Below are positions 16,860 to 39,579 of a stretch of 64,000 bases of DNA, piece after piece; positions within the stretch are counted from its first letter, which is position 1; each line of letters opens with the position of its first letter. Under the pieces are notes generated by a model. That model saw only the letters and a list, made by a program, of their open reading frames with translations, ran no database searches and was not told the origin of the DNA. Made by a program: the position numbers and the translations under genes. The stretch is from Microthyrium microscopicum (taxonomy: Eukaryota): contig MU004238.1 in the NCBI GenBank assembly GCA_010405405.1, forward strand, positions 631,530 through 695,529. The letters run 5' to 3'.

Positions 16860-18749
16860 TCAGCTCGGGTTAGGCTTATTGCCAACATCCAGCTCATCAA
16901 TTGATATCTCCTTTGGTTCGCGAGGCAATCTTAAAGCAAGAAAATTGGCGCTGGCTCGTTCTGCCTTTTCAGCTATACCAGTCATGTATTTCACCACTTG
17001 ATCCTCCGGAGCTGCTACCTTCTCGAAGAAGTTCAGTAGAGTTGGATCGGAAGGAGCCTCGAACCGTACGGTCAGAGGTTGGTAAAATATCTTCTCAGAA
17101 TTTCCAGTCGTTCCTACTGGTTGTCCATCCGATTCCTTGGTTTCGGGCTTTGGATCAAGATTCATCGCGTCTGGATTGGGTGACTGAGCCCCTTCCTTAC
17201 CTTTCTTCTTCTCATTACTTCTCTTCTTACCCTCCGCCGTATCTGCCGCAAATAGTTCGGACTCTTTCTTGACCACGAGGAAGCTGGCTAGAACCTTGGA
17301 ACGTTTTTCGTCGTACTCCAAGATAGTGTTCTTTGGGAAAAGAAATCGGTCCGTGGAATTTTGACTGAATTCCATCAACACATGCAGAGGCTGAGGGACA
17401 AATACTTGTCGAGGAGGACGAGGAGGAGTGGGCTGAAAAGATGGCCGTGGTATTGGGTTTGTAGGTGCAGCTCGAGCTATTGGTGACTGATAGCTAAGTG
17501 GTTGTTGAAAAGGTCGACTGATACTATGGTTTGCGCCTTGACCAACCTGATAAGGAGCACGAGGCCCTGTATATTGGTGTTGCTGAGCAGCGAGCGCTTT
17601 CCTACGCTCTTCTGCTGCAGCAGCCTCCCTGTCCTTCACGATCCTGGTCAGTTCGTCAATATGGCCTTGGAAATAAGTCAGCTGTTCCGGCGTAGCCTCA
17701 TTTCCGGCCACAAGTTTCATGACCTGCTTTAAAGCATTATCATTCTGAGCTCTTTGGGCTAGCATTTGAATGACAGGATCTGTAGCCGCAGATGGAGGTC
17801 TTGCAGGTGGAGCAGGCTGCCTCGGAGCGGTGGCTGGAGGGCCCATTGGACTTGGTCTGGCGACTGGAGCGGTTGGTGTTGGCCGATTTTGATTTTGATT
17901 CTGTGAGGTTATATTTTGTGGAGTATTCGATGCACCTGAGCTGGCTGCTGGTGATGGTGAGTATGAGGATGCTGTTGTAGGCTTTGCCACTGGAGTATAG
18001 ATAGTTGGGGTTGTTGAAAGAGGTTTTGACTGTTGCTGAAGTGGTGTGAGTGAGCTAGCCGTAGTTGGATATAGTGGCTTGTTTCCATGAGTTGACTGAG
18101 GTGTGATGGGAGGGCGATAAGAGCCAGCTTGATACGTAGAATGAGTACTCGGCGAATTGGTAGGTCCAAAACTGCCGACAAATTGGCGGTCTTGCTGCGG
18201 TGGTTGGGGTGGTACCGTTGTGTCTTTGATCACGAAGATGGTCACATCAAAGATGTGTGGCTCAACAATCATTTTGCAAGTCCCCATCCTGGTCATAGGT
18301 GGCCTTGAATCTTTGGTGGTTGATTTAGTTCCCTCTGGCAAATCTTTCTTCTTCTTGTATGTTGCCTTGGACCAAAATTTCTCGAAAACGCAATCCGAGA
18401 GCCATTGTTGCTTAGATCGAGCTAGGGAAGTCGTTAAAACTCCACTTTCTCCAACACTGTACCATTCAGAGTCCTTGAGGTCTTCTGGTTGCGATTTGGG
18501 GAGCGAAGGTAAGCTTTCACCATCGACTAGTTTGTTGGGCAGCACAACAACCCGAGGTTTCTCTTCTTCCTTTTTTACACTTTGTTCGTTCTCAGCGCCT
18601 GATGTGACTGTCTTTTCCTTCTTTGAGGGTCGTCCTCTTTTGCCGGGGCCTCTGGGACTTTGCTTCGGAGCTTCGGAGTCTGCAGCTTCATCGCGTTGTT
18701 TTGCCGCTGGTTCGCGCAGGCGCATAGATGTTCGACGTGTTTCGGGCAT
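16860..18749 (-). CDS. SWC3: SWR1 complex subunit Swc3-like protein
   Basis: 629-aa ORF with blocks recalled from Pezizomycotina Swc3: FEKFWSK, IVEPHIFDV, DPVIQMLAQRA, DRFLFPKNTILEY. Confidence 0.75.
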   Translation of the reverse strand: MPETRRTSMRLREPAAKQRDEAADSEAPKQSPRGPGKRGRPSKKEKTVTSGAENEQSVKKEEEKPRVVVLPNKLVDGESLPSLPKSQPEDLKDSEWYSVGESGVLTTSLARSKQQWLSDCVFEKFWSKATYKKKKDLPEGTKSTTKDSRPPMTRMGTCKMIVEPHIFDVTIFVIKDTTVPPQPPQQDRQFVGSFGPTNSPSTHSTYQAGSYRPPITPQSTHGNKPLYPTTASSLTPLQQQSKPLSTTPTIYTPVAKPTTASSYSPSPAASSGASNTPQNITSQNQNQNRPTPTAPVARPSPMGPPATAPRQPAPPARPPSAATDPVIQMLAQRAQNDNALKQVMKLVAGNEATPEQLTYFQGHIDELTRIVKDREAAAAEERRKALAAQQHQYTGPRAPYQVGQGANHSISRPFQQPLSYQSPIARAAPTNPIPRPSFQPTPPRPPRQVFVPQPLHVLMEFSQNSTDRFLFPKNTILEYDEKRSKVLASFLVVKKESELFAADTAEGKKRSNEKKKGKEGAQSPNPDAMNLDPKPETKESDGQPVGTTGNSEKIFYQPLTVRFEAPSDPTLLNFFEKVAAPEDQVVKYMTGIAEKAERASANFLALRLPREPKEISIDELDVGNKPNPS

Positions 18750-24151: not shown

Positions 24152-26379
24152 ATGGGAGTAAGTTTTTCCCCTATACCAACCATTGATTTCTCCAAATCGA
24201 CATCGCGACGTATACTCTAACATATTGACAGTTGGCTTCTAAGCTTGCTGCCTCCAACCAAGGAGGAGGCTACGGCGGTCCTCCTCCACCAGCTCAGGGT
24301 GGTCAAGGCGGCTATGTATGTCGTTACCTACAGTATCAAGTTGCCATTTGAATGCTGATTGATGAATAGCCTGGACAGCAACCATATCAAGCCTACCCAG
24401 GAGGTCAAGTGAGTTCATTTTCCTTAGCGCTCATCCTTTAATTCCTTCATACCACTTTCCGACCATGTTATAATTCACGGTACCACCGGATGCACCCCGC
24501 AAGGCAATTTCCAGTTTGAAGACAAGCTCTGTTTGCCCCTCCTTTATGTTGACTGCCAAACTGCCCTGACTGCCTTGTCTACGCCAATCGTCATCAGCTC
24601 CGCCACCATTTGCAACCATATAACGCATATAATTTCTCTCGCCAAGCCTCCGACACAAACAATTATTTCCTATCATTCTTTCTGTTAACATGTCCGGCAA
24701 GCCATATCAAGCGTACCCTGGCCAAGCGGCGTATCCGGGCCAAGCAAACCCTCAGTATAACCAACAACCTCCATACCCGCAGCAAAACCAGCAAGGTCCA
24801 TATTCGCAAGGACAATATCCGAACCACCAAACGCAGCACGGATATGGCCAACAACAACAAGGATATGGTCAACAACCACAACAGGGATATGGTCAACAGC
24901 AACCGCCGCAGAACTATGCGCAGTATGGGCAAAGCCAACCACCTTACCCGTCGTCTTCACCCTATCCACAGAGCCCTGGACCTGGCTACGTTCGTCTCGA
25001 CTTGCTTTTTTTATTCTACAATGAATGAACTATTACTGACTTTATGATTATAGGGAGGTCCACCTCAGCAGCAAGGCCAATACGGTCAAGGCCCACCACC
25101 ACCACAGGGACAAGGTGGATATCAACAGCCTGGTGCGCCTGGTGGTTATGGTCAACAAGGCCAACGCCCACCTCAACAAGGACCAGGTCCACAGGCTTAC
25201 AAGAATCTTTTGAATAAATGTATTCAAGAAAATCGCCTACAGGCTTTCTATCCACCAAACTCTCCACAGCTCGACCAAATTGCAAACAAAGCGGTGCAAT
25301 CCATTCCTCAACTTGCACAGCGATGGCGCATTCCCATGGAGGTCGCCAATGAACTCGTACAATTGGGACTATACGATATTGTTATCTTCATTGGTGAAAT
25401 CAGACAGTTCCCATATCGTTCAAAGTTTTGCTAATGAATACAGATGACTCTGGTTCTATGGCTTTCGAAGAAGGTGGTGAGCGTATCAAGGACTTGCGCC
25501 TTATTCTGGATCGAGTCGCTTCTACTGCAACCAACTTTGATGAGGATGGAATATCAATTCGATTCATGAATGCCAACTACCCGCAAAATGTACTCGAGAA
25601 CATTCGGTCAGAACAACAGATCGGTCAGCTCATGGAGACTGTTCAATACAAAGGCTTGACTCCCATGGGAACCGAGTTGCGCAAAAAGGTCGTTGACGGA
25701 ATCATCCTATCCAAAGTCCGCGATCGTCGATACACCAAGCCACATCTTGTCATCTGCATCACTGACGGCCAACCTGCTGGAGAAGCTCAAAATACTGTTA
25801 CAGACACTATCAAGTACGCTGTCAATGAGGTTGGCCGTCAATTTGGTGGTGGTGGTGTTGCTTTCCAGTTCGCCCAGGTTGGAAACGATCAGAAGGCGAG
25901 AGAGTTCTTGGCAAAGCTAGACGAGGACCCTGTGGTTGGAAATATGATTGATTGCACTTCCAGTAAGTTTGATGAGATAAGACTGAAGAACCTAGCGCTG
26001 ACTTGGTGTAGACTATGAAAATGAATCTGAGGAACTGCGCCAGCGTGGAGTGGACTTGACACCCGATCTGTGGCTCATCAAGCTCATGCTCGGAGCTATT
26101 GATCGTTCATATGACAGCAAAGACGAATCCGGAGCTAATGCTCCTCCAGCACATGCTCCTCAAGGCCAGTATGGTGCACCACCCGGTCAGCAACAGTACG
26201 GAGCTCCTCCTCAGCAAGGTTATGGTGGACCACCCCCTCAAGGACAGCAGTACCCAGGCCAAGGACCGCCACCTGGGCAATATGGTGGTCAACCTCAGCA
26301 AGGCTACGGCCGCGGCGGAGGTCCACCAGGAGGACCTGGAGGTTATCCTCAGCAAGGAGGTGGCAATGTGCGTTACTAG
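24152..26379 (+). CDS. vWA-domain protein with G/Q/P/Y-rich tails (similar to fungal proteins annotated RfeF); about 7 exons
   Basis: First exon ATGGGA, then LASKLAA...; MIDAS motif FIDDSGSM, TPMG, ITDG; low-complexity N- and C-termini. Confidence 0.85.
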
Positions 26380-27733
26380 CACCCGTAATCTCTGATCTTG
26401 TAAACGGACGGTCTGGGAAAGGTATTTCGGTGTAGTGGACTTGAAGTCTCCTGCATAACACGTCAAGGAACAATCCTTGTGGAAGTGTGCTGGACTTGTT
26501 TTGTGTTAGCTGTCATGGAAAGGATCTCACGATGGATGCTGCTTCCTCCTCGACCACCTAAATAGTTCTATGATTAGTAAATTTATAAATAATGCATGAT
26601 CTCATACTCATATTGTGGAATATGTCGCTTTCTAAAGACAATTGACAACAGATCCACATGGCATAAGATGTTGATGAATGCACGCCCGATAGCTAGAACA
26701 GATCCAGATGGCAATATGCGTCAGTGGCTTCCTTCGATTGAAATCTGAGATGATCTCGCATGTACAACAACAATGCATTATATTTGCGATGACCAGAGCT
26801 TCCAGTCCTGGGGCCGGGTCGTCGTTTAGGATAACCCTCATACCTGTGATAGGTACTTTGTGGATATCAAAAAGCTCTTGGTCTCATCGAGTGCACTAAA
26901 TACGTACGAGTTCGTCAATTTTTCATGTCAATGAGTCGGAAAAAACTAGATGGCGCTGCCAGCAGCTTTCTTGGCTGCCAGACGCTACACGCTATTTTCG
27001 GACTGTCAAAGGCTTTCAAACTTGATTGATTCGTCGAGTTCCATGGAAACATGATATCTCTCGTTTAACATGACGTTATCGTGTATCGTGAATAGAGCGG
27101 CAGATCGATAGACTTGATACATCATCGATGTTGTAGTCGATATAATCGTTCATTCGACCGAATTTAGACTCATAATCGAACAGTGATGGTCGCCGAGACA
27201 GTATCGTATCTGGAACGTTGACTGGTTGATACCAATTTTGGGCAGCCAGAATGTAGGCTGCCTAGGCCATGACTAGTGGATCCTTCCAAAGATTGACATA
27301 TTGGGGGTTCCGGGACGATCACTTTTCGGTTATGGGTGTAAAATGCGCTGAAGTTTAGAGATAGGGAAATATTTGCTTTGACTAACCAGAACGTGAACGC
27401 CAGATCAAACAAGAAAACAACTAATAAGTGTAAACTGTGTCTCTCAGTCTCTAACGCATTGATGAGGATAAGTCGATCCTGTGATAAGGTTATCACAATA
27501 TGCGAGTCGATATGCTGTACATGATCGTTTCCTGAGCATTCAAGGTGGCGCAACTTCTTGTTGCGAGGCGATCGACTTGATGCACATACAGAACTACCGG
27601 TAGGCAAAAACAATGAAGTAATGGTAGAACACAACTTCATTCTCTGTGTTTTATGAGGGTCATTACGCAAGAATAGATACGACATCGCTGGGATGTTTCT
27701 GATACCATGATCGCTCCTTCTGACTTTACAACA

Positions 27734-27900
27734 GGGTCGCTCTTTCTGCATTCAGAGCAGGTCGCTCTTTCCACCTTCAAATCTGGGTCGCTGCTTCTGC
27801 ATTGATAGCAGGTCGCTCTTTCCACCTTCAAATCTGGGTCGCTGCTTCTGCATTGATAGCAGGTCGCTCGCTCCTTCTGCGCTCAGAGCAGGGTCGTTCC
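27734..27900. repeat. 51-bp tandem repeat built from ~24-27-bp GGTCGCT subunits
   Basis: GTCGCT starts at 27761, 27812 and 27863 with exact copies between; degenerate subunits on both flanks. Confidence 0.9.
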
Positions 27901-28059
27901 TTCTGTAATCGGAGCAGAATCAACCCACTAGCAGAATAGGGCATCGTTCAACTCTGGCTTTGATTCCTCCTCCACTACAGAACGCGGGGTTAGTTCTCGA
28001 CAAACTTGACCAACTAGCTTACATGTCAAAGCGACTGCCATCAGCTCTGGTACGAAGTA

Positions 28060-29590
28060 TCCAGAATCGATCTGCTTGACGATCATGCGAATCATTCTCA
28101 TGCGGATCATTCTTATGAACATGGTTCCAACAAGGAGGAGTTCTTTGACAAGGCCGAACGAACTTGGTGAATACCATCTATCTCTACCCACCGTTCTGAC
28201 GGCGAGCGAAGTCGATAACACGGGGACTTGAGGCTAGAAACAGGTATATGATACATTTGTCCTGATTTCAAGTTTTGCTAATGATTAAGAATTCCACTCT
28301 TTTCAACGACATGCCGACGCAGTGGCCAAACAAAAAACGCACGTACAGCAGCCAAGTAGGCTCAACAACAAAACGCATCTTGACATCTTTCCCTGTGGAA
28401 AGGACGCAGCGACATTCTCAGATGGTCATTTGATAATCTTAGGCATATCGTCCAACTGCTACCTGCCAGATGGACGTTGACAACGGGGCGAGACTGGAAG
28501 CAACAGACGCGATTCCAATCACCCAGACTCTCTTTATGCTCCGAAGTAATTGCCGAGAGCGTTCCCAAAGTTCCCGTCATGGCGTCAATCAAAATTCCAA
28601 GGAGCCGTGATAGTTGGAGTTGTGCATGTCGATCTTGATCGTGCTGTTAAGGGATCGCCATTCCGATATGCCTGGTGTCCCACATGCTGCCAATCACAAG
28701 GCTATCCGATTTCAAAGATGACCGTAAATTGAGGGTTTGACACTGTATAATGCACCACACCTTACGAATGACAATTCGACATTCGCGCCCTTCGTCCAAA
28801 TGGATGTGGCTGGCCGCGAATGTGCTCGTAAACACAAAGCACCACGATCGGTCGGATATGACAAGCGTCGCTGGACAGGTGAGACTGACGGATCGTTCCA
28901 GTATGAGCCGAAACGACGACGAAAGGGCAACACACTGCGACGAACAGCTTGCGACTTTACATGACCGTCTTTGGTACGCATGATTTGTGCCAAAGAAAAG
29001 ACAAGCTGCCTGGAGAATGCATGAAGTCCTGCGATGATCAAACCTTGCCATTGTTGCATACATTGATGAATTTCAGGTGACGCCGTGACGCCCTGCAACG
29101 AAAATAACGAGAGACTGCAAGAAAATGACTGTTGTTGCTGTGGCGAGACAAACGAGTTAACTCCAATAGAGGCGACAAGCATTTCCCCGGACAGTCATCC
29201 TACAGAACACGATCGGGGCTATCCTCGCGCTGTTTATCCCAAAGACCAAAACAAGCCTCAGCAACTGAGAGACGGCACAACATTATTAGGCCTCCACGAA
29301 GAAGGATCAAGAAGGTGCGGGAACTCAGTACCCGCCAATCGCAAGTGGAGAAAATGCAATCAAACAGTCCTTCAAGCAACGAAATCATGGGCTCATGTTT
29401 GGGACCAACTGTGGCACACGAATCGAGTCAAGGCTTGCGGAAGATTTTGAGCTATTCCCAAGAACGGGAGCTGGGCATGACTATGTAGCACCGATATGAT
29501 TCTTGAAGGAAACAATGAAGGACGCTGGTGTCCATGTTTGCAAAGGTGAAGAAGAGTCAATAGCAACTTGTGAACAAGGCTTTTGATCCA
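28060..29590 (+). pseudogene. Probable decayed spliced gene of unknown family
   Basis: Canonical intron at about 28244-28289 (GTATAT..GCTAAT..TAAG) joins protein-like frames broken by scattered TGA/TAA codons; no intact ORF. Confidence 0.35.
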
Positions 29591-30057
29591 CCATCCTTCA
29601 GGCCCAAGTATCTAGAAATGGAGAAGCGGGAATGCTGCATCCATACAGCGATTTGAAAGATGAAGAAACCCCAAAGGCATTTTTGTAAGTTGTATATAAT
29701 GGTCTCAGGAGCTATTCCAACAATCACACGTAGAAAATATCACTTTTAAACTCCATACTTTACAAAAGGGACAATGATAATTTAGGCTCAAAACCAACAT
29801 AAATTACGATCTTTACCTGGCCAGCCGTACCGTGGCCCTAGAATCAGATGAAGTGCTCAAACGTCGGAGGTGAAGGAGCTATGGTGGTTGGTTGACGGTG
29901 ACGGCGAACAACAGTGAGGTTGATTGGCTGGTAAAACGTCGTAGTGTAGCATAACATATTCACTGAGCGGAGATCCAGGGCCCTGGTCTTGTGTCATACG
30001 GTCGACAGCAACCTAGAATAACCCCTCAAGGAGAGCATCGAGCTATTTAAGAATCTG

Positions 30058-32272
30058 GGAATAAGAGTTATCTGAGCCGAAAACCTTATTCCGAAAATTC
30101 TATAAGTTACTCATCAATAGCGGTGATGTGGAGAGCGGGTGGTAGAGAAGCTTGCAGATTCAGGCACTATTCCAGCTTTGCTTAAGCGTGCCAATCCTTG
30201 AGCAAACTGTTGCAAAAGATAGGAATAAGAGTTATCTTATAAGAAGGCCATATTCCTAACTTTTCAGATCAAGCCATAAAAGATTGGTGGTGTGGCAAGT
30301 TGCGCAACTAAAGGGGGTTGAATCATCTATGACCCAGCAGAAAAATCATTTTCATCGCCCATCCTAGATCGATCAGTTTGAAAAGTTAGGAATAAGCCTT
30401 ATATGCTGAAAGAAGCTTATTCCGAACTTTTCAAACTAATTGATAGAGCTTTGATGTTCATCTTCCTACCCCTATTCACCCCCTTTTCGAACAACAACAA
30501 ACCTTAGCACAGCCATCTAATGTCTGACGGCCTTGAAAAGTTCGGAATAAGCTTGAATCTGGATCAAAGGCTTATTCCTATCTTTTTATAGCGTTTGGTC
30601 AAGAACTGACCATTTTATAATAACTTAGCAACGGTAAGTCGTAGAGGTCTAAAAGAGTAGGAATAAGCGTCTAAGGTTAATAAAAGCTTATTCCTATGTT
30701 TTTATATTGTTTACTCAAGAACTGAAGGTTTTACTGTAACTCAAAAACGGTTGGTCTTAGAGCTTCAAAAACATAGGAATAAGCTTTATTGAGCCTTAGA
30801 AGCTTATTCCTAAGTTTTTATAACGTATACTTAAAAACTGACCCTTTTAGAATAAGTCAACAACGGTACGTCCTAGAGCTCTATAAAACTAGGAATAAGC
30901 TTTATTAAGCCTTAGAAGCTTATTCCTAAGTTTTTATAACGTATACTTAAGAACTAACAGTTTTAGAATAAGTCAACAACGGTACGTCCTAAAGTACTAT
31001 AAAATTAGGAATAAGCTTCAAGCTAGCGTAAAAACTTATTCCTACGTTTTTAGACCTTATTGTCAAGAAATGACCTTTTTAGAACAAGTCAAGAACTGTA
31101 AGTAGTAGAGCTTTAAGAAGCTAGGAATAAGTATTATTTAATGCTCAAAGCTTATTCCTATATTTTTAGAGCGTGCAGCCAACGATTAACGCTCTTACAG
31201 GGGTAGTCAAGAACTATAAAGCCATTAGTACTAAAGTATATTCTCTATAAACATAGGAATAAGCTTTTCTAAGCTATTCAAGCTTATTCCTAAGTTTTTG
31301 AAGCGTGCAGCCAAGAACTAACGACGTTGTAGGGGTAGTTAGCGATTTGTTAGTTATACTAAATAAAGTTATATAAAGGATTACTACTAGATTTATATTC
31401 TTTAAAAAGATAGGAATATAAGCTTTTCTATGTAATTATAGCTTATTCCTATTTTTTTTTAGATCTATTAAGCTTAGATTAAGTAAGTTATTATATTTTA
31501 AGCTATAGTATATCTATAGATCTATAAAAGTAGGAATAAGCTTTTCTATCCCCTAGAAGCTTATTCCTAAATTTATAGATTTATATCTCTTAAATTAGGC
31601 AAGTTTTTATATCTTAAGCTATAGTTTATCTATAGATCTATAAAAGTAGGAATAAGCTTTTCTATCCCCTAGAAGCTTATTCCTAACTTAGTCGATTTAT
31701 ATCTCTAAGATTAAGTAAGTTATTTTATCTTAAGCTGCAGTATATCTATAGATCTATAAAATTAGGAATAAGCTTTTCTATCCCCTAGAAGCTTATTCCT
31801 AAATTTATAGATTTCTATCTCTAAAATTGAGCAAGTTTTTATATCTTAAGCTATAGTATATCTATATATCTATAAAATTAGGAATAAGCTTTTCTATTCT
31901 ATAAAAGCTTATTCTTAACTTTATAGATTTATATCCCTAAAAATAAGGAAGTTATTATATCTCAAGCTATAGTATATATAGAGATTTAAAAAACTAGGAA
32001 TAAGCTTTTCTATTCTATAAAAGCTTATTCCTATCTTTATAGACTTATAAGTCTAGGATTGAGCAAGTTATTATATCTTATGCTATGGTATACAGAGAGA
32101 TCTAAGAAAGTAGGAATAAGCTTCTATAGAAAAGAAAAGCTTATTCCTATCTTCTTGGATCTATTAACCTAAGATTGAGCGACTTATTGTATCTTAGGCT
32201 ATGGTACGTATATAGCTCTAAAAAGATAGGAATAAGCTTCTTCATGATAGAAAAGCTTATTCCTATCTTTTC
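30058..32272. repeat. Array of 18 palindromic dyads GGAATAAG-N19-CTTATTCC, mostly on a 116-bp period
   Basis: Left half-sites at 30058, 30222, 30389, 30544, 30660, 30776, 30892, 31008, 31124, 31256, 31413, 31533, 31649, 31765, 31881, 31997, 32113, 32229; no ORF; AT-rich core. Confidence 0.97.
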
Positions 32273-34849
32273 AAGGCAAACGAAATAATGTTGAGTTATC
32301 TATGCTTTGGAGATCTTAGAAAGTGGGCTCTTGATCAGGCTGACTTTGATGTTCTTTGCCAAGACTTACAACAGCCAATCAAAAGCAACGATTTTCAGTC
32401 TATGGATGATGGGCTTGGCAGCGGATTACATCAGCAGAGGGGTATTCAGCATCGTTTCTGCAACATCTTTTATCAATAAGACAAGCGTTATCAACACCAT
32501 CGATACTCTGTCTGTTCGTCGAGGGGCCAACTTCGAAAAGTGATGGGCGCTGATCCTCCCCTACCTATGTATCCTAATTCCTACGAAGACTCACAATCAT
32601 GGCTAGAATAGCGTACACTTCAGCTGTGCAAAGGGCTGGCTGTATTATCAATTTCGCGTTCCAGATACTATATTTTTGAGGATATTTAGGTTGTGATTGG
32701 TTGAATTTCATGAAAACCAATACGGAGGGTGGGGTGTGTCTCAGTGACCATCACTTTTCGAATCAGGGTATACACTGGCGTTTCCTCAGAGATCAGCATA
32801 CTTATCTTCCAATCGATCGCTGAAAGTTCGATAGTGAAAGGCCGAAGGGAGCGAGCGGGATGAGAACTCGTGCCGTGTGAGCCCATCTAGGAAGGTCGGT
32901 GATTTTATCTTGAACGCTTGAGACTTTGGATTCTAGCCTGTTCTATATCTTGATACGAGATAACACACAATGCATTCTTGGGGTACTAGGCGCATCATGT
33001 ACGGGGTCTAGTATCAAAGCACAAGCTATGGCAAATGATATATATTGCTTTTCTCTTCAGACTGCCGCTTTGAGAATCACGAAATCGCAATCAAGGGGCA
33101 TGGACTATGTTTAGATCTCTTATATGAGAGTTTTGCGGGGAAACTCTAATCAAATATACAACAACGTCTGGTCGAACGCTGATCGTTTGCGGTTTGGTAG
33201 GTAGATCTTGGAAAGCGTTTGTTCGTTCCAGTCTCTGGTCGAAATGATTCAACTTTGTAGCGACAAGAGGCTAACAAAGTCTGTCGACGCCATTGTTCAC
33301 GGAGAATTGGGCATTCGTGCTTCCGAACTACCACATATTAAGGTTCCGACAAGTTGATAACAAAGAGCACTAAGATTGGCTTCTGAGTTGGCTTCGCATG
33401 CTGGACGACCAGAGCAGAAAGATACTGTGTGTCAATCAATGTGACGAACAACACACAATCACTGTCTGTAGCGATTTGCGGTGGAATGTATCTTGACGAA
33501 GAGACGCTTTGCCTAAGGAGACGATGATCGCTAGGCCATGTACCAGTAGTATCTTTCTCAGTATCCTGGCTTGCCTGGTCCATGTCATGTACACATTGGG
33601 CCAGGATCTTTTGCCTAGACGCTGTCAAGAAGCGTATGGATTCGCGATTGGCGGGAGTATACCTGTTTACGTTTCCCGATTTAGCGCTGTCAATATATAT
33701 CTACCAGTCTTGCTCTGTCGCTTAGTGCAATTGGGGAGAAATCGCAGGCTCGAACCCTATATAGAATGATTTATAGTACAAGTGCTGGTCTATGATCAGC
33801 ATCTAGGGCACTAGCACTCGATATAAAATTACAAACTGGTATAAAGAAACCTTCTCAGACGTTTGTCCAATACTGGAGTGTTCAGTCTGGGGGTCCAGAA
33901 CTTGGGGCGCATGGATCTTGCTCACTGCTGGTTCATCCAGGTACCCGGATTGATAAGGAGCCAAGATTGTTTAAGCTTTGCATTGGGGCATTTCCAGTCA
34001 CGACTAGGCAAGTAGCAGTCGAAGGCATTGAATGAATGGAGACATTTCGACTCATTGGCACACTAAGATGAAGAGCCGAGACTTGATATCCTATCGTATA
34101 GACTTGAGGCGACTACATTGATTGGGCGCAAAGTAATGCTCAGTTGTACATTGGTTGGTCGCAAGATGAACTGGAAAAGCGCAATCTCAAGAAAGTGAAG
34201 AGTTAGATTGTCGAATCTAAAAGCAGACACAGAACCAGAGACGAAAGATCGACAAGTTTGCCAAAGAGGCATACAAGAACCGATAGATTATATTTTCGAT
34301 AGCCGGGAACTGCTGAAGAGCAAACGTGGATTATTGGGCGTAAGTAAAATTGTAAAGCGATCGATCTTCTCTTTCAAGATGTGACTACTATATATATTAC
34401 GGAATACGGCAACTCGCCTTTCGGAGACGCCCACCTAGACTGTGAGCCACTCGTTAAAGGTTGGGAGTTATCTGGAAACACTATATAGGTACATGGATTA
34501 GGGGTCTTGTGATTTTATAGACTAGCCCTGTCAACCAGACTTTTCGGTTGAACAATATAAAGTGCTTATATTACCAAGGCTTCCAGTCCACTGACCACAG
34601 CTTTTTCATGTGGATCTACCGTTCACAGCAGGGGATGAGTTTGGTTTATAAATAAGGCATTTCGAGATGGCACAACACCTTTAGTACTATTAATGTAAGG
34701 CACTCCCCATATTTCGTTGACGGCGCTTTGATTCCTGAAATCCGTGCTCTTGTTTTTACTACTCTATCACTGCTTGGTTGAGTGAGGAGTTAGACATTCC
34801 TTTGAACCACACTCACTTGAATTTAGATCCCACACGGGGTCGTCCTATC

Positions 34850-37001
34850 ATGATGTCGCGTTGGCTGTTCTTCTTCTTTGCACTTGTTGCATTTGTGTAA
34901 GTTGTCACTCTATAGCAATAGAAGCAAATATCTGATACTGGTATAGACAACTTGCAGTCACGGAAGAAAACGCGTTACAATCGTCGAATTCAACTTTTGC
35001 GCTGAACGCAACTCTGGTGGACAATACAGCATCCTCTGAGGAAGCGTTATCATCAGAGGAAGCGATTACCGGAGATCTAACAGCAGAAGCAGATGGCGCT
35101 GCAGCACCGCCTCCTCGAGGTGGTGGAGGAGGATCGCGTGGCTCTTCTGGCGGAGCATCTCATAGCTCTGGCGGAGGAGGTCGTGCTGGTGGAGCCACTG
35201 GCGACCGAGGTAGCCGTTCTTCCAACTCAGGAGCTCGTTCAGGAGGTAAGATCAACCCGTGATACTGCACATTACGAATTATTTCCTTGAAAAACCTCTA
35301 ACCAGAGGTTCGTTTCTGCTTTCCAGGGTCTCAAGGTCATCGCGAATCTTCTGGACCATCTCATCGTGAATCCTCTGGATCAACTCATCGTGACAGTCCA
35401 GCCCCTCAGCACCATGAGTCTGCGGCACCTCAACATCATGAGTCTACGGGAGCTGGTCATGGTGAAATTGCTGGGCAAGGCCATCGGGCAGCTCCTGGAC
35501 AAGGAAACCGTGAAAACTCGGGCATAGGACGCGCGCCAACTGCAAATCATCGACCTGAAGGCGACCGAGGTGAGGTTACCCGGCGGCTCCTGAGGACTGC
35601 TTCATCTTGGACCATTAACACTCCATCATATCGTTCTAAAGAGCCGTAGCTGACTTATTTCCTGCGTTAGGTATTGGAAGCCGTCCCGCAGAAAACCACG
35701 GAAATGGGTTCGGTAGTCGTCCAAGTGAAAGCCGTCCTCAAGGTAATGGAATTGGCAGCCGGCCAAGTGAGAGCCGCCCTCAGGGCAACAACAACGGAAT
35801 TGGCAGTCGTCCAAACGAGAGCCGCCCTCAGGGTAACAACAACGGGATTGGCAGTCGTCCAAACGAGAGCCGCCCTCAGGGCAATAACAACGGCATTGGA
35901 AATCGACCAGCAGAGAACCGAGGCGGTGAGCAACCTCGCGGAAGCGGATCCCGTCCACTTGAAAATAACAGACCCGGCGAAGGAGCACGTCCAGGAAGTG
36001 GCTACAATCCAGGCTCACGCCCAACTGTACGTCTCAGTCCATCATACAAACTCTTGAATTGCTGACGTGAACTAGGTGACTTCATTCCGAGGAGGCAGCC
36101 AACCTACTGGCAATTTTGGAGGAAACCAAGGACCCGGGAATTTTGGAGGGAATCAAGGACCCGGAAATTTTGGAGGAAACCAAGGACCTCGCCCAACAAA
36201 CAATCCCCAATGGGGCTCAGGATCCCGTGGAGGAGATAACGGTAACAGACCAGGGTGGGAAGGTAGACCTAACGGCCAACAACAGCCTCCACCACAAGGC
36301 TACCAGTCCGATGGATGGGGTCGCAATCGTCCAAACTGGCGCGACGGTAACCAATACCGTGGAAATCGCCCAGGCTGGAATTACCCGGATAGACCAGGTG
36401 AATGGAAGCGTAAGTTTGTTCCCCATCTCCTCCCGTCCCCGGCTAACATACATTAGACGAATGGGGTCAACGGCCAGAATGGCGGCCATATGGCAACGAC
36501 TGGGACAGGCCAGGCTATAATGGCTATCGTCCCTGGGGCGATGCACCATACGGCGGTATTCCATGGCCAACAGTAACTCTACAAGGCCCAATTCCCCCAA
36601 TCCCAACATGGTACGACAACAATTGGCAGCCCCGCGCACCGCGTACCGTCTACAACACCTGGGACACCGGCTATTACGGCGACAACTTCCAGCCACCGTG
36701 GGCCAACCTCCCAGCACCCCAACTACCGCCCATCACAATCCAACTACCCAGCCCACCGCAAGCCGGCTGCCAAGTAGGCGTAACCTCCTTCCCAACAGTG
36801 ATCACAACGGATGCGACGTATACAGATACGATAACGCAGCCGCCGAACGATGCGGTAATCACGGTGTGGATTGATCGGGATAATGGACAGACGTCGACGG
36901 ATTGGGGTCCAGTGGAGACTGTGTATGAGGTGTTTGTGTATACGACGGTGGCAACGGTGGAGGTTGTCAGTACGACGACGCTTTGCTATGTTAATAAGTG
37001 A
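34850..37001 (+). CDS. Secreted low-complexity repeat protein; 6 exons
   Basis: MMSRWLFFFFALVAFVQLA signal peptide; manual splicing keeps one open frame through Gly/Ser, HRESSG, GIGSRPNESRPQGNNN, GNFGGNQGP, W/R/P-rich and Thr/Val-rich segments. Confidence 0.8.
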
Positions 37002-38316: not shown

Positions 38317-39579
38317 ATGGATGATACTGATCACTCTGAAAGGCCGACCAAAATTCGCAAAACGTCGCACTCGCCAGCACCCATGGCTTCGAATATCACT
38401 TCAGCGGATAATTCATCGTCCAAGGTGGGAGGTGGCGCGGACACTGCACAACTTCCGGATATTAATTCATTGCTACCTGCAGAAGCATGTAAATCCGAGG
38501 AGGTTGCTTCGCGTGAACAAGAACAAGGCCAGGCAAAAATAGAGGATGGCGACAATCAAAATGCTAGTACGGAACCACCAACCATGTCCAAGAACGCTCA
38601 AAAAAAGCTTCGCAAGAAACAAGAGTGGGAAGCCGGTCGCGGAGAACGAGCCATCAAGCGCAAAGAAAAGCGCATTATCATGCGAGAGAAGAAGAGAGAA
38701 GAAATCAAAGCGAATCCAGCCCTTGCGCCAGTCAAGAAAGCCAAGCTGATCCAAACACCCGTCGCGATGACATTCATCATTGATTGCGCTTTCGATGAAC
38801 TCATGTTCGATAATGAAGTTGTTAGCTTGGGATCTCAAATCACGACTTGCTATAATAGAGTCAAGCACTGCAAGCTACGGCCTATATTGGCGGTGTCGTC
38901 TTTTGGCGGACGACTTCAGGAGCGATTTGATGTACTTCTGAAGAAGCAGTATCAGCATTGGAGGGGTGTTCACTTCTTGACCGACGATGTCAAGGATGTT
39001 GCTAAGAAGGCGGAAGAGTGGATGAAAGATACTGTCCATGAGTCTGGTGGTGTCATTGAAGCAAGTGCTGCAGATATGGAAGCACCAGAGGAAGAAGACA
39101 AACGAAAAGGCTGGGAAAGCGCAAAGATGATATATTTAAGCGCGGATTCGTCAAACGTTCTGACAACGTTATCACCAAACACTTGTTACGTTGTTGGAGG
39201 GCTGATTGATCGCAATCGACACAAAGGCCATTGCTTCAAGAGAGCGCGGACGGCGGGTATCACCACGGCGAGGCTGCCGATTGGAGAGTATATTCAATTG
39301 TCGAGCCGGAAAGTATTGACTACGAACCACGTAGTTGAGATTATGCTACGATACTTGGAGAACCGGGATTGGGCGAAAAGCTTCTTGGATGTGATACCGG
39401 CACGGAAAGGCGTAGCATTGAAGGGCGGAGTCAAGGCAACAGGAAGCGGTGATGATCAGGAGGCTGAAAATGATGACGAATGCGAAGGCGAAGAGATGGA
39501 AGAATTAGAGGGCGAGGACATAGGAAAGCGGGAAGATGAAGAAGGGAAAAAACAAGAGGAGTTGAACGTAGAAGTATGA
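38317..39579 (+). CDS. TRM10: tRNA (guanine-9-N1)-methyltransferase
   Basis: MSKNAQKK, IDCAFDELM, IYLSADS, YVVGGLIDRNRHKG, ARLPIGEYI, VLTTNHV. Confidence 0.95.
   Translation: MDDTDHSERPTKIRKTSHSPAPMASNITSADNSSSKVGGGADTAQLPDINSLLPAEACKSEEVASREQEQGQAKIEDGDNQNASTEPPTMSKNAQKKLRKKQEWEAGRGERAIKRKEKRIIMREKKREEIKANPALAPVKKAKLIQTPVAMTFIIDCAFDELMFDNEVVSLGSQITTCYNRVKHCKLRPILAVSSFGGRLQERFDVLLKKQYQHWRGVHFLTDDVKDVAKKAEEWMKDTVHESGGVIEASAADMEAPEEEDKRKGWESAKMIYLSADSSNVLTTLSPNTCYVVGGLIDRNRHKGHCFKRARTAGITTARLPIGEYIQLSSRKVLTTNHVVEIMLRYLENRDWAKSFLDVIPARKGVALKGGVKATGSGDDQEAENDDECEGEEMEELEGEDIGKREDEEGKKQEELNVEV

What the first reader, a model, noticed from the sequence alone, without database searches (positions are those of the whole stretch)
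30058..32272. 2.2-kb array of 18 phased palindromic sites with fixed geometry and variable cores
Seen: 18 dyads GGAATAAG-N19-CTTATTCC, usually extended to TAGGAATAAGCTT-N13-AAGCTTATTCCTA. Start-to-start distances are 164, 167, 155, 116 x5, 132, 157, 120, 116 x6. Spacing between half-sites is 19 bp in the units counted; unit 11 has a TA insertion in its left arm. The central loop sequence changes freely between units, and linkers of the left and right blocks keep only patches of identity (e.g. GGTACGT, AGCTCTA). The first three linkers are longer and look unique, yet the dyad persists. 116 is not a multiple of 3, there is no ORF, and 116 bp is about 11 helical turns, which would place the sites on one face of the helix. 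Inference: this pattern fits selection on an array of binding sites for a dimeric protein better than a neutral minisatellite. Candidates are recombinase or transposase sites (conserved arms around a variable core, as in lox/FRT), an iteron-like origin or enhancer (analogous to baculovirus hr or EBV FR arrays), or a multi-hairpin RNA. I do not recognise it as a described fungal element.
Basis: partly seen in the sequence, partly recalled or inferred. Interest (0 to 1): 0.9.

Follow-up and report, generated by a model that had tools for sequence, protein, structure and literature searches.

The report
Conserved palindrome array in fungal DNA
A 2.2-kb non-coding stretch in a fungal chromosome carries 18 regularly spaced copies of one palindromic sequence that has stayed almost unchanged while the DNA between and inside the copies has mutated heavily, which points to a docking array for a DNA-binding protein of a kind not described in fungi, although its job is still unknown.

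Summary
There are 18 dyads at the stated coordinates and spacings: 15 exact, 3 with one change, against 0 expected by chance.

The arms are conserved beyond what RIP immunity can explain. Between the two blocks, transversions per site are 0.02 in arms and 0.43 in linkers. Among 12 regular units, 20 of 26 arm columns are invariant against 14 of 77 linker columns (p = 1e-7).

New points:
- The half-site is longer than reported: T.TAAAAA-nn-TAGGAATAAGCTT, with two free positions between invariant ones.
- The left and right blocks are one old 116-bp repeat, 39–57% identical in register, and RIP-marked.
- Dyads 1–3 lie in unique DNA without a RIP signature.
- The "free" 13-nt cores partly flip orientation: core 17 matches the reverse complement of core 15/16 at 11/13.
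- Mismatches show no strand bias of the kind an RNA hairpin would leave.
- The array sits centrally in an ~8.3-kb non-coding island, between outward-facing CCAAT boxes.

Best reading (0.45): a selected array of sites for a symmetric DNA-binding protein. No relatives could be found. The organism (probably Microthyrium microscopicum) is phylogenetically isolated and no genome was held for the window.

The parts
26500..34850 (.). About 8.3-kb non-coding island with the array at its centre; the largest gene gap in the window
   Evidence: No ORF of 70 aa or more in this span has coding-like codon usage (best total LLR 11.2; confident genes exceed 25). No Pfam hit here. The next gene starts at 34851.
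29920..29930 (-). CCAAT-box 11-mer (TTGATTGGCTG on the + strand), 128 bp outside dyad 1, facing away from the array
   Evidence: Exact inverted match to 32372-32382. The 9-mer AGCCAATCA occurs 5 times in the window.
30058..30092 (.). Dyad 1 (exact 8-mers; inner arm positions degenerate), in unique DNA without RIP signature
30222..30256 (.). Dyad 2 (right half CATATTCC); core shares 9/13 with core 1
30389..30423 (.). Dyad 3; palindrome extends to about 30-bp arms (DNA fold -22.4 kcal/mol, z -8.25)
30544..30578 (.). Dyad 4, first unit of 116-bp block A
30660..30694 (.). Dyad 5; core is the reverse complement of cores 6/7 (9/13; forward 3/13 and 2/13)
30776..30810 (.). Dyad 6
30892..30926 (.). 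Dyad 7 (core 12/13 identical to core 6)
31008..31042 (.). Dyad 8 (core matches no other core)
31124..31158 (.). Dyad 9; followed by a 93-nt linker of family B
31256..31290 (.). Dyad 10; followed by a 118-nt linker of family B
31413..31449 (.). Dyad 11 (TA insertion in the left arm), start of block C
31533..31567 (.). Dyad 12 (core identical to cores 13 and 14)
31649..31683 (.). Dyad 13
31765..31799 (.). Dyad 14
31881..31915 (.). Dyad 15 (right half CTTATTCT; core identical to core 16)
31997..32031 (.). Dyad 16
32113..32147 (.). Dyad 17; core is the reverse complement of cores 15/16 (11/13; forward 6/13)
32229..32263 (.). Dyad 18; core is the reverse complement of cores 12-14 (9/13; forward 4/13)
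32372..32382 (+). CCAAT-box 11-mer CAGCCAATCAA, 109 bp outside dyad 18, facing away from the array
32498..32960 (.). Piece held at 100% identity and depth 105 by run X5 (labelled a guess at RNA, another organism label), with adapter-like letters at both ends; begins 122 bp beyond the right CCAAT box; no coding potential

Best explanation
The array is a selected cluster of 18 recognition sites for a symmetric, probably homodimeric, sequence-specific DNA-binding protein that reads duplex DNA. Each site has two inverted half-sites (T.TAAAAA-nn-TAGGAATAAGCTT) held at a fixed distance by a 13-bp spacer whose sequence is not read. Inferred history: a few sites lay about 155-167 bp apart in ordinary DNA (dyads 1-3). 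One 116-bp unit was then multiplied by tandem duplication. Repeat-induced point mutation and ordinary drift degraded the repeated linkers. Purifying selection kept the half-sites and their spacing. Because the arms are perfect inverted repeats, replication template switching, or conversion between dyads paired in inverted register, occasionally flips the unread spacer. The array lies in the middle of an 8.3-kb non-coding island between two outward-facing CCAAT boxes, so its most likely role is an upstream control or chromatin-organising element for the flanking non-coding transcription units. What is shown: the anatomy, the differential conservation, the flips, the RIP signature and the context. 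What is inferred: protein binding, selection, the history and the role.
For: (1) Arms are conserved far beyond linkers and cores. Between blocks, arms have 0.021 transitions and 0.021 transversions per site, against 0.166 and 0.426 in linkers and 0.22 and 0.40 in cores. Invariant columns are 20/26 in arms, 14/77 in linkers and 0/13 in cores (p = 1e-7).
(2) This is not RIP immunity: transversion-free columns are 23/26 against 28/77 (p = 3e-6).
(3) The conservation follows a sequence pattern rather than a gradient. Positions -4 and -3 are free (0.10 and 0.20 bits) between invariant A(-6) and T(-2). The core at the dyad centre is the most variable part. Neither fits conversion tracts or hitch-hiking.
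(4) Sequence is kept, not pairing. At the free positions, same-dyad complementarity is 7/18 and 5/18 against 3.8 and 4.9 expected. Arm mismatches are G.U-compatible 18 times on the + strand and 16 times on the - strand, with 41 not wobble-compatible.
(5) The spacer is 13 bp in 18 of 18 dyads, while 7 of 17 linkers depart from 77 nt (79 to 128 nt).
(6) Dyads 1-3 keep arms and spacing between linkers that are unrelated to each other and to families A, B and C and carry no RIP signature.
(7) Flipped cores (11/13, 9/13 and 9/13 to the reverse complement; null P(>=9) = 0.003 and P(>=11) = 1e-4 per pair over 153 pairs) show that core orientation is neutral, as expected for an unread spacer.
(8) Context: a non-coding island and an exact inverted CCAAT 11-mer pair 128 and 109 bp outside the array.
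Against: No binding protein is known or encoded nearby: none of 79 ORFs has a DNA-binding, transposase or recombinase Pfam domain at E <= 1e-5. The motif was seen at this one locus only. The window has no other site, and collections that hold few or no fungi gave only single chance dyads. Half-site centres lie 26 bp apart, about 2.5 turns, so on opposite faces, which is unusual for a simple dimer. Cores 12-14 and 15-16 are identical while their linkers differ by 9-23%, which hints at some dyad-centred homogenisation without selection. No relatives, population data or expression data could be examined. The RNA-hairpin and selfish-element readings predict much of the same conservation pattern.
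Confidence: 0.45

Rival explanations
1. The array is a relic or internal repeat of a non-autonomous mobile element, for example the central tandem repeats of a Helentron/HINE-type rolling-circle element, or transposase-binding subterminal repeats of a foldback or CACTA-like element. The arms were kept because the element's own protein recognised them.
For: Helentrons and HINEs have 12-15-bp palindromic subterminal inverted repeats, runs of T at their borders, a 3' stem-loop and central tandem repeats, and occur in fungi (passages of PMC4067079). Here the arms are 13 bp and are flanked by A5/T5 runs. The repeat is RIP-marked, as repeated DNA in fungi often is.
Against: No Rep/helicase, transposase or recombinase among 79 ORFs. 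No terminal inverted repeat or target-site duplication at the array borders other than the CCAAT 11-mer, and no wider flank symmetry. Arm variants are not inherited across linkers more than across cores (10.47 against 10.5 of 16). Array contigs have single-copy k-mer depth (82-100 against 91-101 in the flanks, run X1), although k = 31 cannot see diverged copies. Dyads 1-3 sit in unique DNA.
Confidence: 0.17
2. There is no organismal function. The pattern is a by-product of palindrome biology. Template switching keeps the two arms of each dyad complementary. Breaks at hairpins are repaired from neighbouring dyads, which homogenises the dyads. RIP and drift erode the rest.
For: Flipped cores show that the arms do engage in inverted-repeat-mediated events; loop inversion by template switching is described in passages of PMC8794818. 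Neighbouring dyads share identical cores while their linkers differ by 9-23%. The arms lack CpA/TpG, so RIP spares them (sequence; RIP's dinucleotide preference is recalled).
Against: Self-correction explains arm-to-arm identity within a dyad but not identity across 18 dyads. Conversion from neighbours should homogenise the centre most, yet cores are the most diverse part (0/13 invariant columns). Free positions sit between invariant ones. The transversion deficit in arms cannot come from RIP. Dyads 1-3 are conserved in non-repeated, non-RIP DNA.
Confidence: 0.18
3. The array is a tandem cluster of hairpin RNA precursors (milRNA- or siRNA-like). Each unit folds into a stem of about 23 bp with a 13-nt loop. 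The arms are kept as guide and passenger strands, while loops and linkers drift.
For: Units fold as strong hairpins: as DNA, -15 to -22 kcal/mol with z -2.8 to -8.3 for 5 of 6 tested, and z -1.6 for 1 of 6. The size matches short pre-miRNA-like hairpins. Rfam miRNA-precursor models give sub-threshold hits (best mir-26, 44.8 bits, gathering score 57). Conservation is highest next to the loop and decays outward, as it would for a seed.
Against: All Rfam hits are below gathering score and occur on both strands. There is no G.U strand asymmetry (18 against 16; 4 against 4 in the inner 13 bp) and no compensatory changes. Conservation is mirror-symmetric. Loop length is invariant, which RNA processing does not require. 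No promoter or terminator asymmetry was seen.
Confidence: 0.12

Closest known systems
Baculovirus homologous regions (hr, bound by IE1) and the EBV family of repeats (bound by EBNA1)
   Same: Tandem units each carrying one imperfect palindrome. The palindrome is conserved while the inter-palindrome sequence drifts. A dimeric protein is the presumed reader.
   Different: Those are viral, occur several times per genome, have adjacent half-sites and known binding proteins. Here there is one chromosomal locus in a fungus among housekeeping genes, a 13-bp unread spacer and no known protein.
Clusters of Zn2Cys6 activator sites between divergent fungal genes (Gal4 CGG-N11-CCG, recalled; Neurospora QF site GGRTAARYRYTTATCC, one table row of PMC12941744)
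   Same: The same grammar: inverted half-sites, a spacer of fixed length and free sequence, several sites in a shared upstream region. The QF half-site GGRTAA resembles GGAATAA.
   Different: The half-site here is 13-23 bp rather than 3-6 bp, and the spacer between the 8-mers is 19 bp rather than 4 or 11. There are 18 sites rather than a handful. The sites sit in a tandem repeat. No Zn-cluster gene was found in the window.
Satellite DNAs with a conserved protein box, such as the CENP-B box in alpha satellite (recalled)
   Same: A short box is conserved within otherwise diverging tandem units.
   Different: This array is only 2.2 kb and has 18 units, the box is palindromic, and it lies in gene-dense euchromatin-like surroundings. 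No centromere evidence exists.
loxP/FRT-type tyrosine-recombinase sites (recalled: 13-8-13)
   Same: 13-bp inverted arms around an asymmetric spacer, and the spacer is found in both orientations.
   Different: The spacer is 13 bp, not 6-8 bp. No recombinase gene is nearby. Adjacent sites with identical cores in direct orientation (12-14, 15-16) persist, which an active recombinase would delete.
Helentron/HINE central repeats (PMC4067079, passages)
   Same: Arm length, T/A runs beside the arms, tandem internal repeats, and reported presence in fungi.
   Different: No element termini, no Rep/helicase gene, and single-copy depth.
Template-switch loop inversion at hairpins (PMC8794818, passages)
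   Same: In-place inversion of the sequence between perfect inverted arms, with length kept.
   Different: That paper reports mostly 4-nt loops and some of 7-8 nt, in RNA genes. Here 13-nt spacers flipped at least twice within one non-coding array.

Membership tests
Neutral RIP-degraded minisatellite | Head-to-tail repeat with a RIP dinucleotide signature | tested here: met
   116-bp arrays. TpA/ApT is 1.3-2.0 and (CpA+TpG)/(ApC+GpT) is 0.4-0.65 in blocks A and C, against 0.58-0.79 and 1.2-1.3 in the flanks.
Neutral RIP-degraded minisatellite | Decay is uniform along the unit once RIP-target sites are set aside | tested here: not met
   Transversions per site between blocks are 0.021 in arms and 0.426 in linkers. 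Transversion-free columns are 23/26 against 28/77, p = 3e-6.
lox/FRT-type tyrosine-recombinase site | Inverted arms of about 13 bp | tested here: met
   13-bp arms TAGGAATAAGCTT.
lox/FRT-type tyrosine-recombinase site | Spacer of 6-8 bp between the cleavage points (recalled) | tested here: not met
   The spacer is 13 bp in 18 of 18 dyads.
lox/FRT-type tyrosine-recombinase site | Cognate recombinase gene | tested here: not met
   None among 79 ORFs of 120 aa or more in the 64-kb window. The rest of the genome is not testable.
MITE / TIR transposon | Terminal inverted repeats with a target-site duplication; arms inherited together with the internal sequence | tested here: not met
   Arm variants are shared across linkers no more than across cores (10.47 against 10.5 of 16; background 9.27). 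No direct repeat of 8 bp or more at the array borders.
MITE / TIR transposon | Many dispersed copies | tested here: inconclusive
   Array contigs have single-copy k-mer depth in run X1, and there is no other site in the window. No whole genome is held.
Helentron/HINE | 12-15-bp palindromic subterminal repeats, T runs, central tandem repeats | tested here: inconclusive
   Arm length and flanking A5/T5 runs fit, but no element ends could be defined.
Helentron/HINE | Rep/helicase partner in the genome | not testable with these tools
   None in the window; the genome is not held.
miRNA-like hairpin precursor cluster | Stable hairpin of about 60 nt | tested here: met
   5 of 6 units folded have z <= -2.8.
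miRNA-like hairpin precursor cluster | Match to a curated RNA family at its gathering score | tested here: not met
   0 matches at gathering score. The best sub-threshold hit is 44.8 bits against 57.
miRNA-like hairpin precursor cluster | Strand-specific RNA-level constraint (G.U tolerance, compensatory changes) | tested here: not met
   18 against 16 wobble-compatible mismatches on the two strands, 41 non-wobble. No covariation.
miRNA-like hairpin precursor cluster | Small RNAs from the arms | not testable with these tools
   No run on record as RNA holds the stretch.
Viral hr/FR-type dimer-binding repeat | Tandem units each holding one conserved palindrome | tested here: met
Viral hr/FR-type dimer-binding repeat | Viral genome context and several copies per genome | tested here: not met
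   The neighbours are cellular housekeeping genes. 0 matches in viral contigs.
Viral hr/FR-type dimer-binding repeat | Binding by a dedicated dimeric protein | not testable with these tools
   Needs EMSA, pull-down or DAP-seq.

The most novel reading that the evidence does not exclude
A filamentous fungus maintains a dedicated chromosomal cis-element that works like a viral hr/FR element. It is a phased array of 18 palindromic docking sites for one dimeric protein, set in the middle of an 8-kb gene-free island. It serves as a chromosome-level device (centromere- or partition-like, replication origin, or insulator/super-enhancer) rather than an ordinary promoter. Its unread spacers are flipped over time by template switching.
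Probability: 0.25. Interest if true: 0.85.

Novelty: new variant of a known kind. Interest (0 to 1): 0.62.

Why it matters
Sequence-defined, multi-site protein-docking arrays are known from viruses and from animal and plant satellites, but I found no description of one in a filamentous fungus. The searches were made, which returned only primers or unrelated papers, which returned no primary description of the recalled MATE/AMA1 palindromes.

The locus carries its own internal control. RIP and drift have erased the repeat around the sites, so the residual conservation maps a 23-bp half-site at single-base resolution without any experiment. If a protein binds it, the fungus offers a natural, ready-made multi-copy operator array and a new DNA-recognition specificity. 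If the element marks a centromere, an origin or a boundary, it would be a rare sequence-defined example in Dothideomycetes. The flipped 13-nt spacers are also an unusually clear natural record of in-place inversion between short inverted repeats.

Tried and rejected
(1) RIP immunity of the arms as the whole explanation. The arms do lack CpA/TpG, but the transversion deficit rejects this.

(2) Foldback architecture, with the right block an inverted copy of the left. Reverse-complement linker scores are at null level.

(3) My own interim claim that linker families A and C are unrelated. This was wrong: they are 39-57% identical in register, against nulls of 30 +/- 5% and 28.5 +/- 4%.

(4) The view that each linker with its two flanking arms is a TIR-bounded element. 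Not supported.

(5) Cores as fast-mutating loops. Their distances are bimodal and are partly explained by flips. Cores 3, 4, 8 and 9 still match nothing.

(6) Known RNA families and tRNAs. 0 at gathering score and 0 tRNAs. Sub-threshold hits are generic hairpin matches.

(7) Relatives elsewhere. Metagenome contigs gave 2 single dyads (a bacterial terminator-like hairpin and an AT-rich coding stretch). Viral contigs gave 0. Prokaryote genomes gave 2 single dyads. These collections hold few or no fungi, so this says little.

(8) Whole genome: none is held. Notes of this scan on this genome: none. By sequence, only an unrelated bacterial window.

(9) Expression: no RNA holder was listed. Run X5, guessed to be RNA, has no contig on the array. 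Neither is evidence on expression.

(10) The runs with small shares (X5 at 0.10, X6 at 0.07) hold only flanking pieces. No habitat or strain is inferred from them.

(11) The 66-aa ORF in 32498-32960 has no homologue within the length range searched.

(12) Wider inverted or direct similarity between the two flanks: at null level.

(13) One search used free end gaps, so its alignments collapsed to the sequence ends. Its positive controls worked (9 v 10, z 12.7; 4 v 17, z 6.7), but it is a weak test. One search gives the same negative result for linkers 1-3.

(14) Literature by motif string: only primers and incidental sequence.
Full report
**1. Observation**

The region 30058-32263 holds 18 dyads.
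- 15 of 18 match GGAATAAG-N19-CTTATTCC exactly, with none in 100 dinucleotide-preserving shuffles.
- A mismatch-tolerant scan adds unit 2 (right half CATATTCC), unit 15 (CTTATTCT) and unit 11 (TA inserted in the left arm). In the rest of the 64-kb window it finds only one 3-mismatch hit at 17670, which I take as chance.
- Tandem Repeats Finder reports 116-bp arrays at 30566-31131 and 31478-32239.
- GC is 0.32 in the bin 30001-32000 against 0.43-0.50 elsewhere.
- There is no ATG ORF of 45 aa or more between 29997 and 32288.
- Contigs of runs X1 and X3 reproduce the listed array pieces without a difference, at depths of 82-100 against 91-101 in the flanks for X1. These runs share one sample that may be the window's source, so this shows internal consistency and single-copy k-mer depth, not independent confirmation.

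**2. Organism and neighbourhood**

No whole genome is held for the window. A Trm10-like ORF at 38317-39576 is 100% identical to a protein that NCBI names as from Microthyrium microscopicum. The next-best hit is 47% identical, so the lineage is isolated among sequenced fungi.

Pfam on 79 stop-to-stop ORFs of 120 aa or more finds only housekeeping families: R3H/G-patch, Atg4-like peptidase C54, histone H2A, 2-oxoacid dehydrogenase, SET, Swc3, mitochondrial EF-G, Trm10, syntaxin, Mog1, Lgl and others. It finds no transposase, recombinase or Rep.

A codon-usage log-likelihood model trained on nine confident ORFs finds no coding-like ORF between about 26.5 and 34.85 kb. The best total score there is 11.2, while confident genes exceed 25. 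The next gene starts at 34851 with a signal-peptide-like N-terminus. The array therefore lies at the centre of an ~8.3-kb non-coding island, the largest gene gap in the window.

**3. Anatomy of the site**

I aligned all 36 arms in one register. The half-site reads T.TAAAAA-nn-TAGGAATAAGCTT.
- The ten bases TAGGAATAAG carry 1.4-2.0 bits each.
- The A run at -9 to -5 carries 0.8-2.0 bits.
- T(-2) and A(-6) are invariant in 36 of 36 arms.
- Positions -4 and -3 between them carry 0.10 and 0.20 bits.

The palindrome is thus about 23 bp per arm around a 13-nt core. As single strands the units fold strongly: 5 of 6 tested have z <= -2.8, and unit 3 has z = -8.25.

**4. Is arm conservation more than RIP immunity?**

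The arm has no CpA or TpG, so RIP (preference recalled) would spare it. Blocks A and C do carry a RIP-like signature. TpA/ApT is 1.98 and 1.31, and (CpA+TpG)/(ApC+GpT) is 0.51 and 0.65. The flanks give 0.58-0.79 and 1.22-1.29.

RIP makes only transitions, however. Transversions per site are as follows:

| Comparison | Arms | Linkers | Cores |
|---|---|---|---|
| Between blocks | 0.021 | 0.426 | 0.404 |
| Within left block | 0.031 | 0.168 | – |
| Within right block | 0.011 | 0.117 | – |

By columns over the 12 regular units:
- Invariant: 20 of 26 arm columns, 14 of 77 linker columns (Fisher p = 1e-7), 0 of 13 core columns.
- Transversion-free: 23 of 26 arm columns, 28 of 77 linker columns (p = 3e-6).

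**5. Linkers**

Local alignment sorts the 17 linkers into family A (4-8, 77 nt), family B (9-10, 93 and 118 nt), family C (11-17, 77-79 nt) and three singletons (1-3; 125, 128 and 116 nt). Reverse-complement scores are at null level, so there is no foldback.

My first reading, that A and C are unrelated, was wrong. In register and without gaps they are 39-57% identical, against a shuffle null of 30 +/- 5% and a shifted-register null of 28.5 +/- 4%. Blocks A and C are one old 116-bp repeat whose linkers have diverged by about half, with no indel.

Linkers 1-3 show no similarity to each other or to family A (one search is a weak test, see Tried and rejected). Their segment has ordinary composition: GC 0.405, and RIP indices of 0.80 and 1.61. 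So three dyads keep arms and the 13-bp spacing inside unique DNA that RIP has not touched.

**6. The cores flip**

Core distances within blocks are bimodal. They are 0-1 differences (6/7; 12/13/14; 15/16), 4 differences, or 6-11 of 13, while the matching linkers differ by only 9-35%.

Comparing each core with the reverse complement of every other resolves part of this:

| Core | Matches rc of | rc matches | Forward matches |
|---|---|---|---|
| 17 | 15/16 | 11/13 | 6/13 |
| 18 | 12-14 | 9/13 | 4/13 |
| 5 | 6 and 7 | 9/13 | 3/13 and 2/13 |

The shuffle null gives P(>=9) = 0.003 and P(>=11) = 1e-4 per pair, over 153 pairs. The cores involved are not self-palindromic in register (2-6 of 13), except 15/16 (8 of 13).

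The linkers of the flipped units remain collinear with their families, so only the spacer, with its symmetric arms, turned over, at least twice. In-place loop inversion by inter-strand template switching at perfect hairpins is a described but rare mutation class (passages of PMC8794818). Conversion between dyads paired in inverted register would give the same result. Cores 3, 4, 8 and 9 match nothing in either orientation.

**7. Duplex site or RNA hairpin?**

- At the free positions -4 and -3, the two arms of one dyad are complementary in 7 and 5 of 18 dyads, against 3.8 and 4.9 expected from cross-dyad pairs. There is no compensatory variation in the arms, because they do not vary.
- Arm mismatches that would be G.U on the + strand number 18, and on the - strand 16 (4 against 4 in the inner 13 bp). 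A further 41 are not wobble-compatible.
- Rfam gives nothing at gathering score. In E-value mode it gives only sub-threshold miRNA-precursor and hairpin matches on both strands.
- ARAGORN finds no tRNA.

What is conserved is mirror-symmetric primary sequence, which is what a symmetric duplex-reading protein predicts. An RNA reading is weakened but not excluded.

**8. Mobile-element tests**

- Arm variants are shared across a linker (mean 10.47 of 16) no more than across a core (10.5); the background is 9.27.
- There is no direct repeat of 8 bp or more at the array borders.
- A half-site profile recovers all 36 arms and nothing else in the window (best outside hit E = 9.5).
- Helentron/HINE elements share arm length, T runs and central tandem repeats (passages of PMC4067079), but no termini or Rep gene are present here.

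**9. Flanking signals**

The only inverted match of 8 bp or more between the 158 bp left and 157 bp right of the array is an exact 11-mer: TTGATTGGCTG at 29920-29930 and CAGCCAATCAA at 32372-32382. These lie 128 and 109 bp outside the outermost dyads. The null mean count for 8-mers is 0.38. Scaling by 4^-3 gives about 0.006 for an 11-mer, which is my extrapolation.

There is no wider flank symmetry. AGCCAATCA occurs 5 times in the window, against about 0.5 expected for a 9-mer on both strands (my calculation, uniform base frequencies). It is therefore probably this genome's CCAAT promoter box.

Run X5 is labelled a guess at RNA and carries another organism label. It holds 32498-32960 at 100% identity and depth 105, with adapter-like letters at both ends. 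It also holds 34337-34500 (depth 242.5, part of a 3221-nt contig) and 28288-28469 (depth 3.5). The first of these begins 122 bp beyond the right CCAAT box. Its only ATG ORF of 45 aa or more that lies wholly inside (66 aa, minus strand) has no homologue and no coding signal.

The array thus occupies the position of a shared upstream region between two outward-facing promoter boxes. This is inference.

**10. Searches for relatives**

The 20-base dyad pattern gave the following:
- 2 isolated chance dyads in JGI metagenome contigs;
- 0 in viral contigs;
- 2 isolated dyads in 185,579 prokaryote genomes.

Earlier notes of this scan hold nothing on this genome and no fungal analogue. One note on a giant virus (e1-5522609) describes mirror-symmetric palindromic repeat arrays read as dimer-binding, which is an analogue only. 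Motif strings occur in print only as primers or incidental sequence.

**11. Verdict**

The best-supported mechanism (0.45) is a selected array of sites for a symmetric DNA-binding protein, with an unread, fixed-length, flippable spacer. The array was multiplied by tandem duplication and has since been laid bare by RIP.

The rivals are:
- a relic of a mobile element's protein-binding repeats (0.17);
- a by-product of palindrome dynamics without function (0.18);
- a hairpin-RNA cluster (0.12).

The closest grammars are viral hr/FR arrays and clusters of Zn2Cys6 dyads. The Neurospora QF site GGRTAARYRYTTATCC (one table row of PMC12941744) has a similar half-site but a 4-bp spacer. Membership in any of these families is not established. 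The function, the reader protein and the genome-wide distribution remain open.

Noticed in passing
window 27711-27929: A second, unrelated tandem repeat: four copies of a ~51-55-bp unit (66-100% identity) containing small CTGC...GCAG palindromes. Contigs of X1 and X3 run on into unlike sequence at 27868 and 27917, so related copies probably exist elsewhere in the genome.
   Followed up: partly
window 32726-32777 and 27309-27345: A ~45-bp segment inside the piece 32498-32960 has about double contig depth in X1 and X3, with loose ends on both sides, so it looks like a short dispersed repeat. A 73%-identical copy lies at 27309-27345 on the other side of the array.
   Followed up: no
window 32498-32960: A discrete 463-base piece is held at depth 105 by run X5 (guessed RNA) with adapter-like letters at both ends. 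It has no coding potential and no Rfam match. It may be a short non-coding transcript starting 122 bp beyond a CCAAT box.
   Followed up: partly
window 34851-37000: A gene with a signal-peptide-like start (MMSRWLFFFFALVAF) and long G/N/R/P-rich coding repeats, including a 48-bp period at 35745-35920. No Pfam family was found. It may be a secreted or cell-wall repeat protein.
   Followed up: no
window 24630-26380: A Q/P/G/Y-rich low-complexity protein with a weak vWA-TerF-like domain (27.7 bits, below the cut-off of 29.4) and coding repeats at 26194-26363. It is the last gene before the non-coding island.
   Followed up: no
window 30841-30860 and 30957-30976 (linkers 6 and 7): The middle of the family A linkers carries TTTTAGAATAAGTCAAC, which resembles a degenerate third half-site (TTAGGAATAAGC lacking one G). 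It is not conserved in units 4, 5 and 8.
   Followed up: no
window 32310-32345: The right flank keeps a decayed copy of the unit's outer arm (GAGATCTTAGAAAGT followed by GGGCTCTTG where the half-site would be), 96 bp after dyad 18. This suggests a worn nineteenth unit at the array edge.
   Followed up: no
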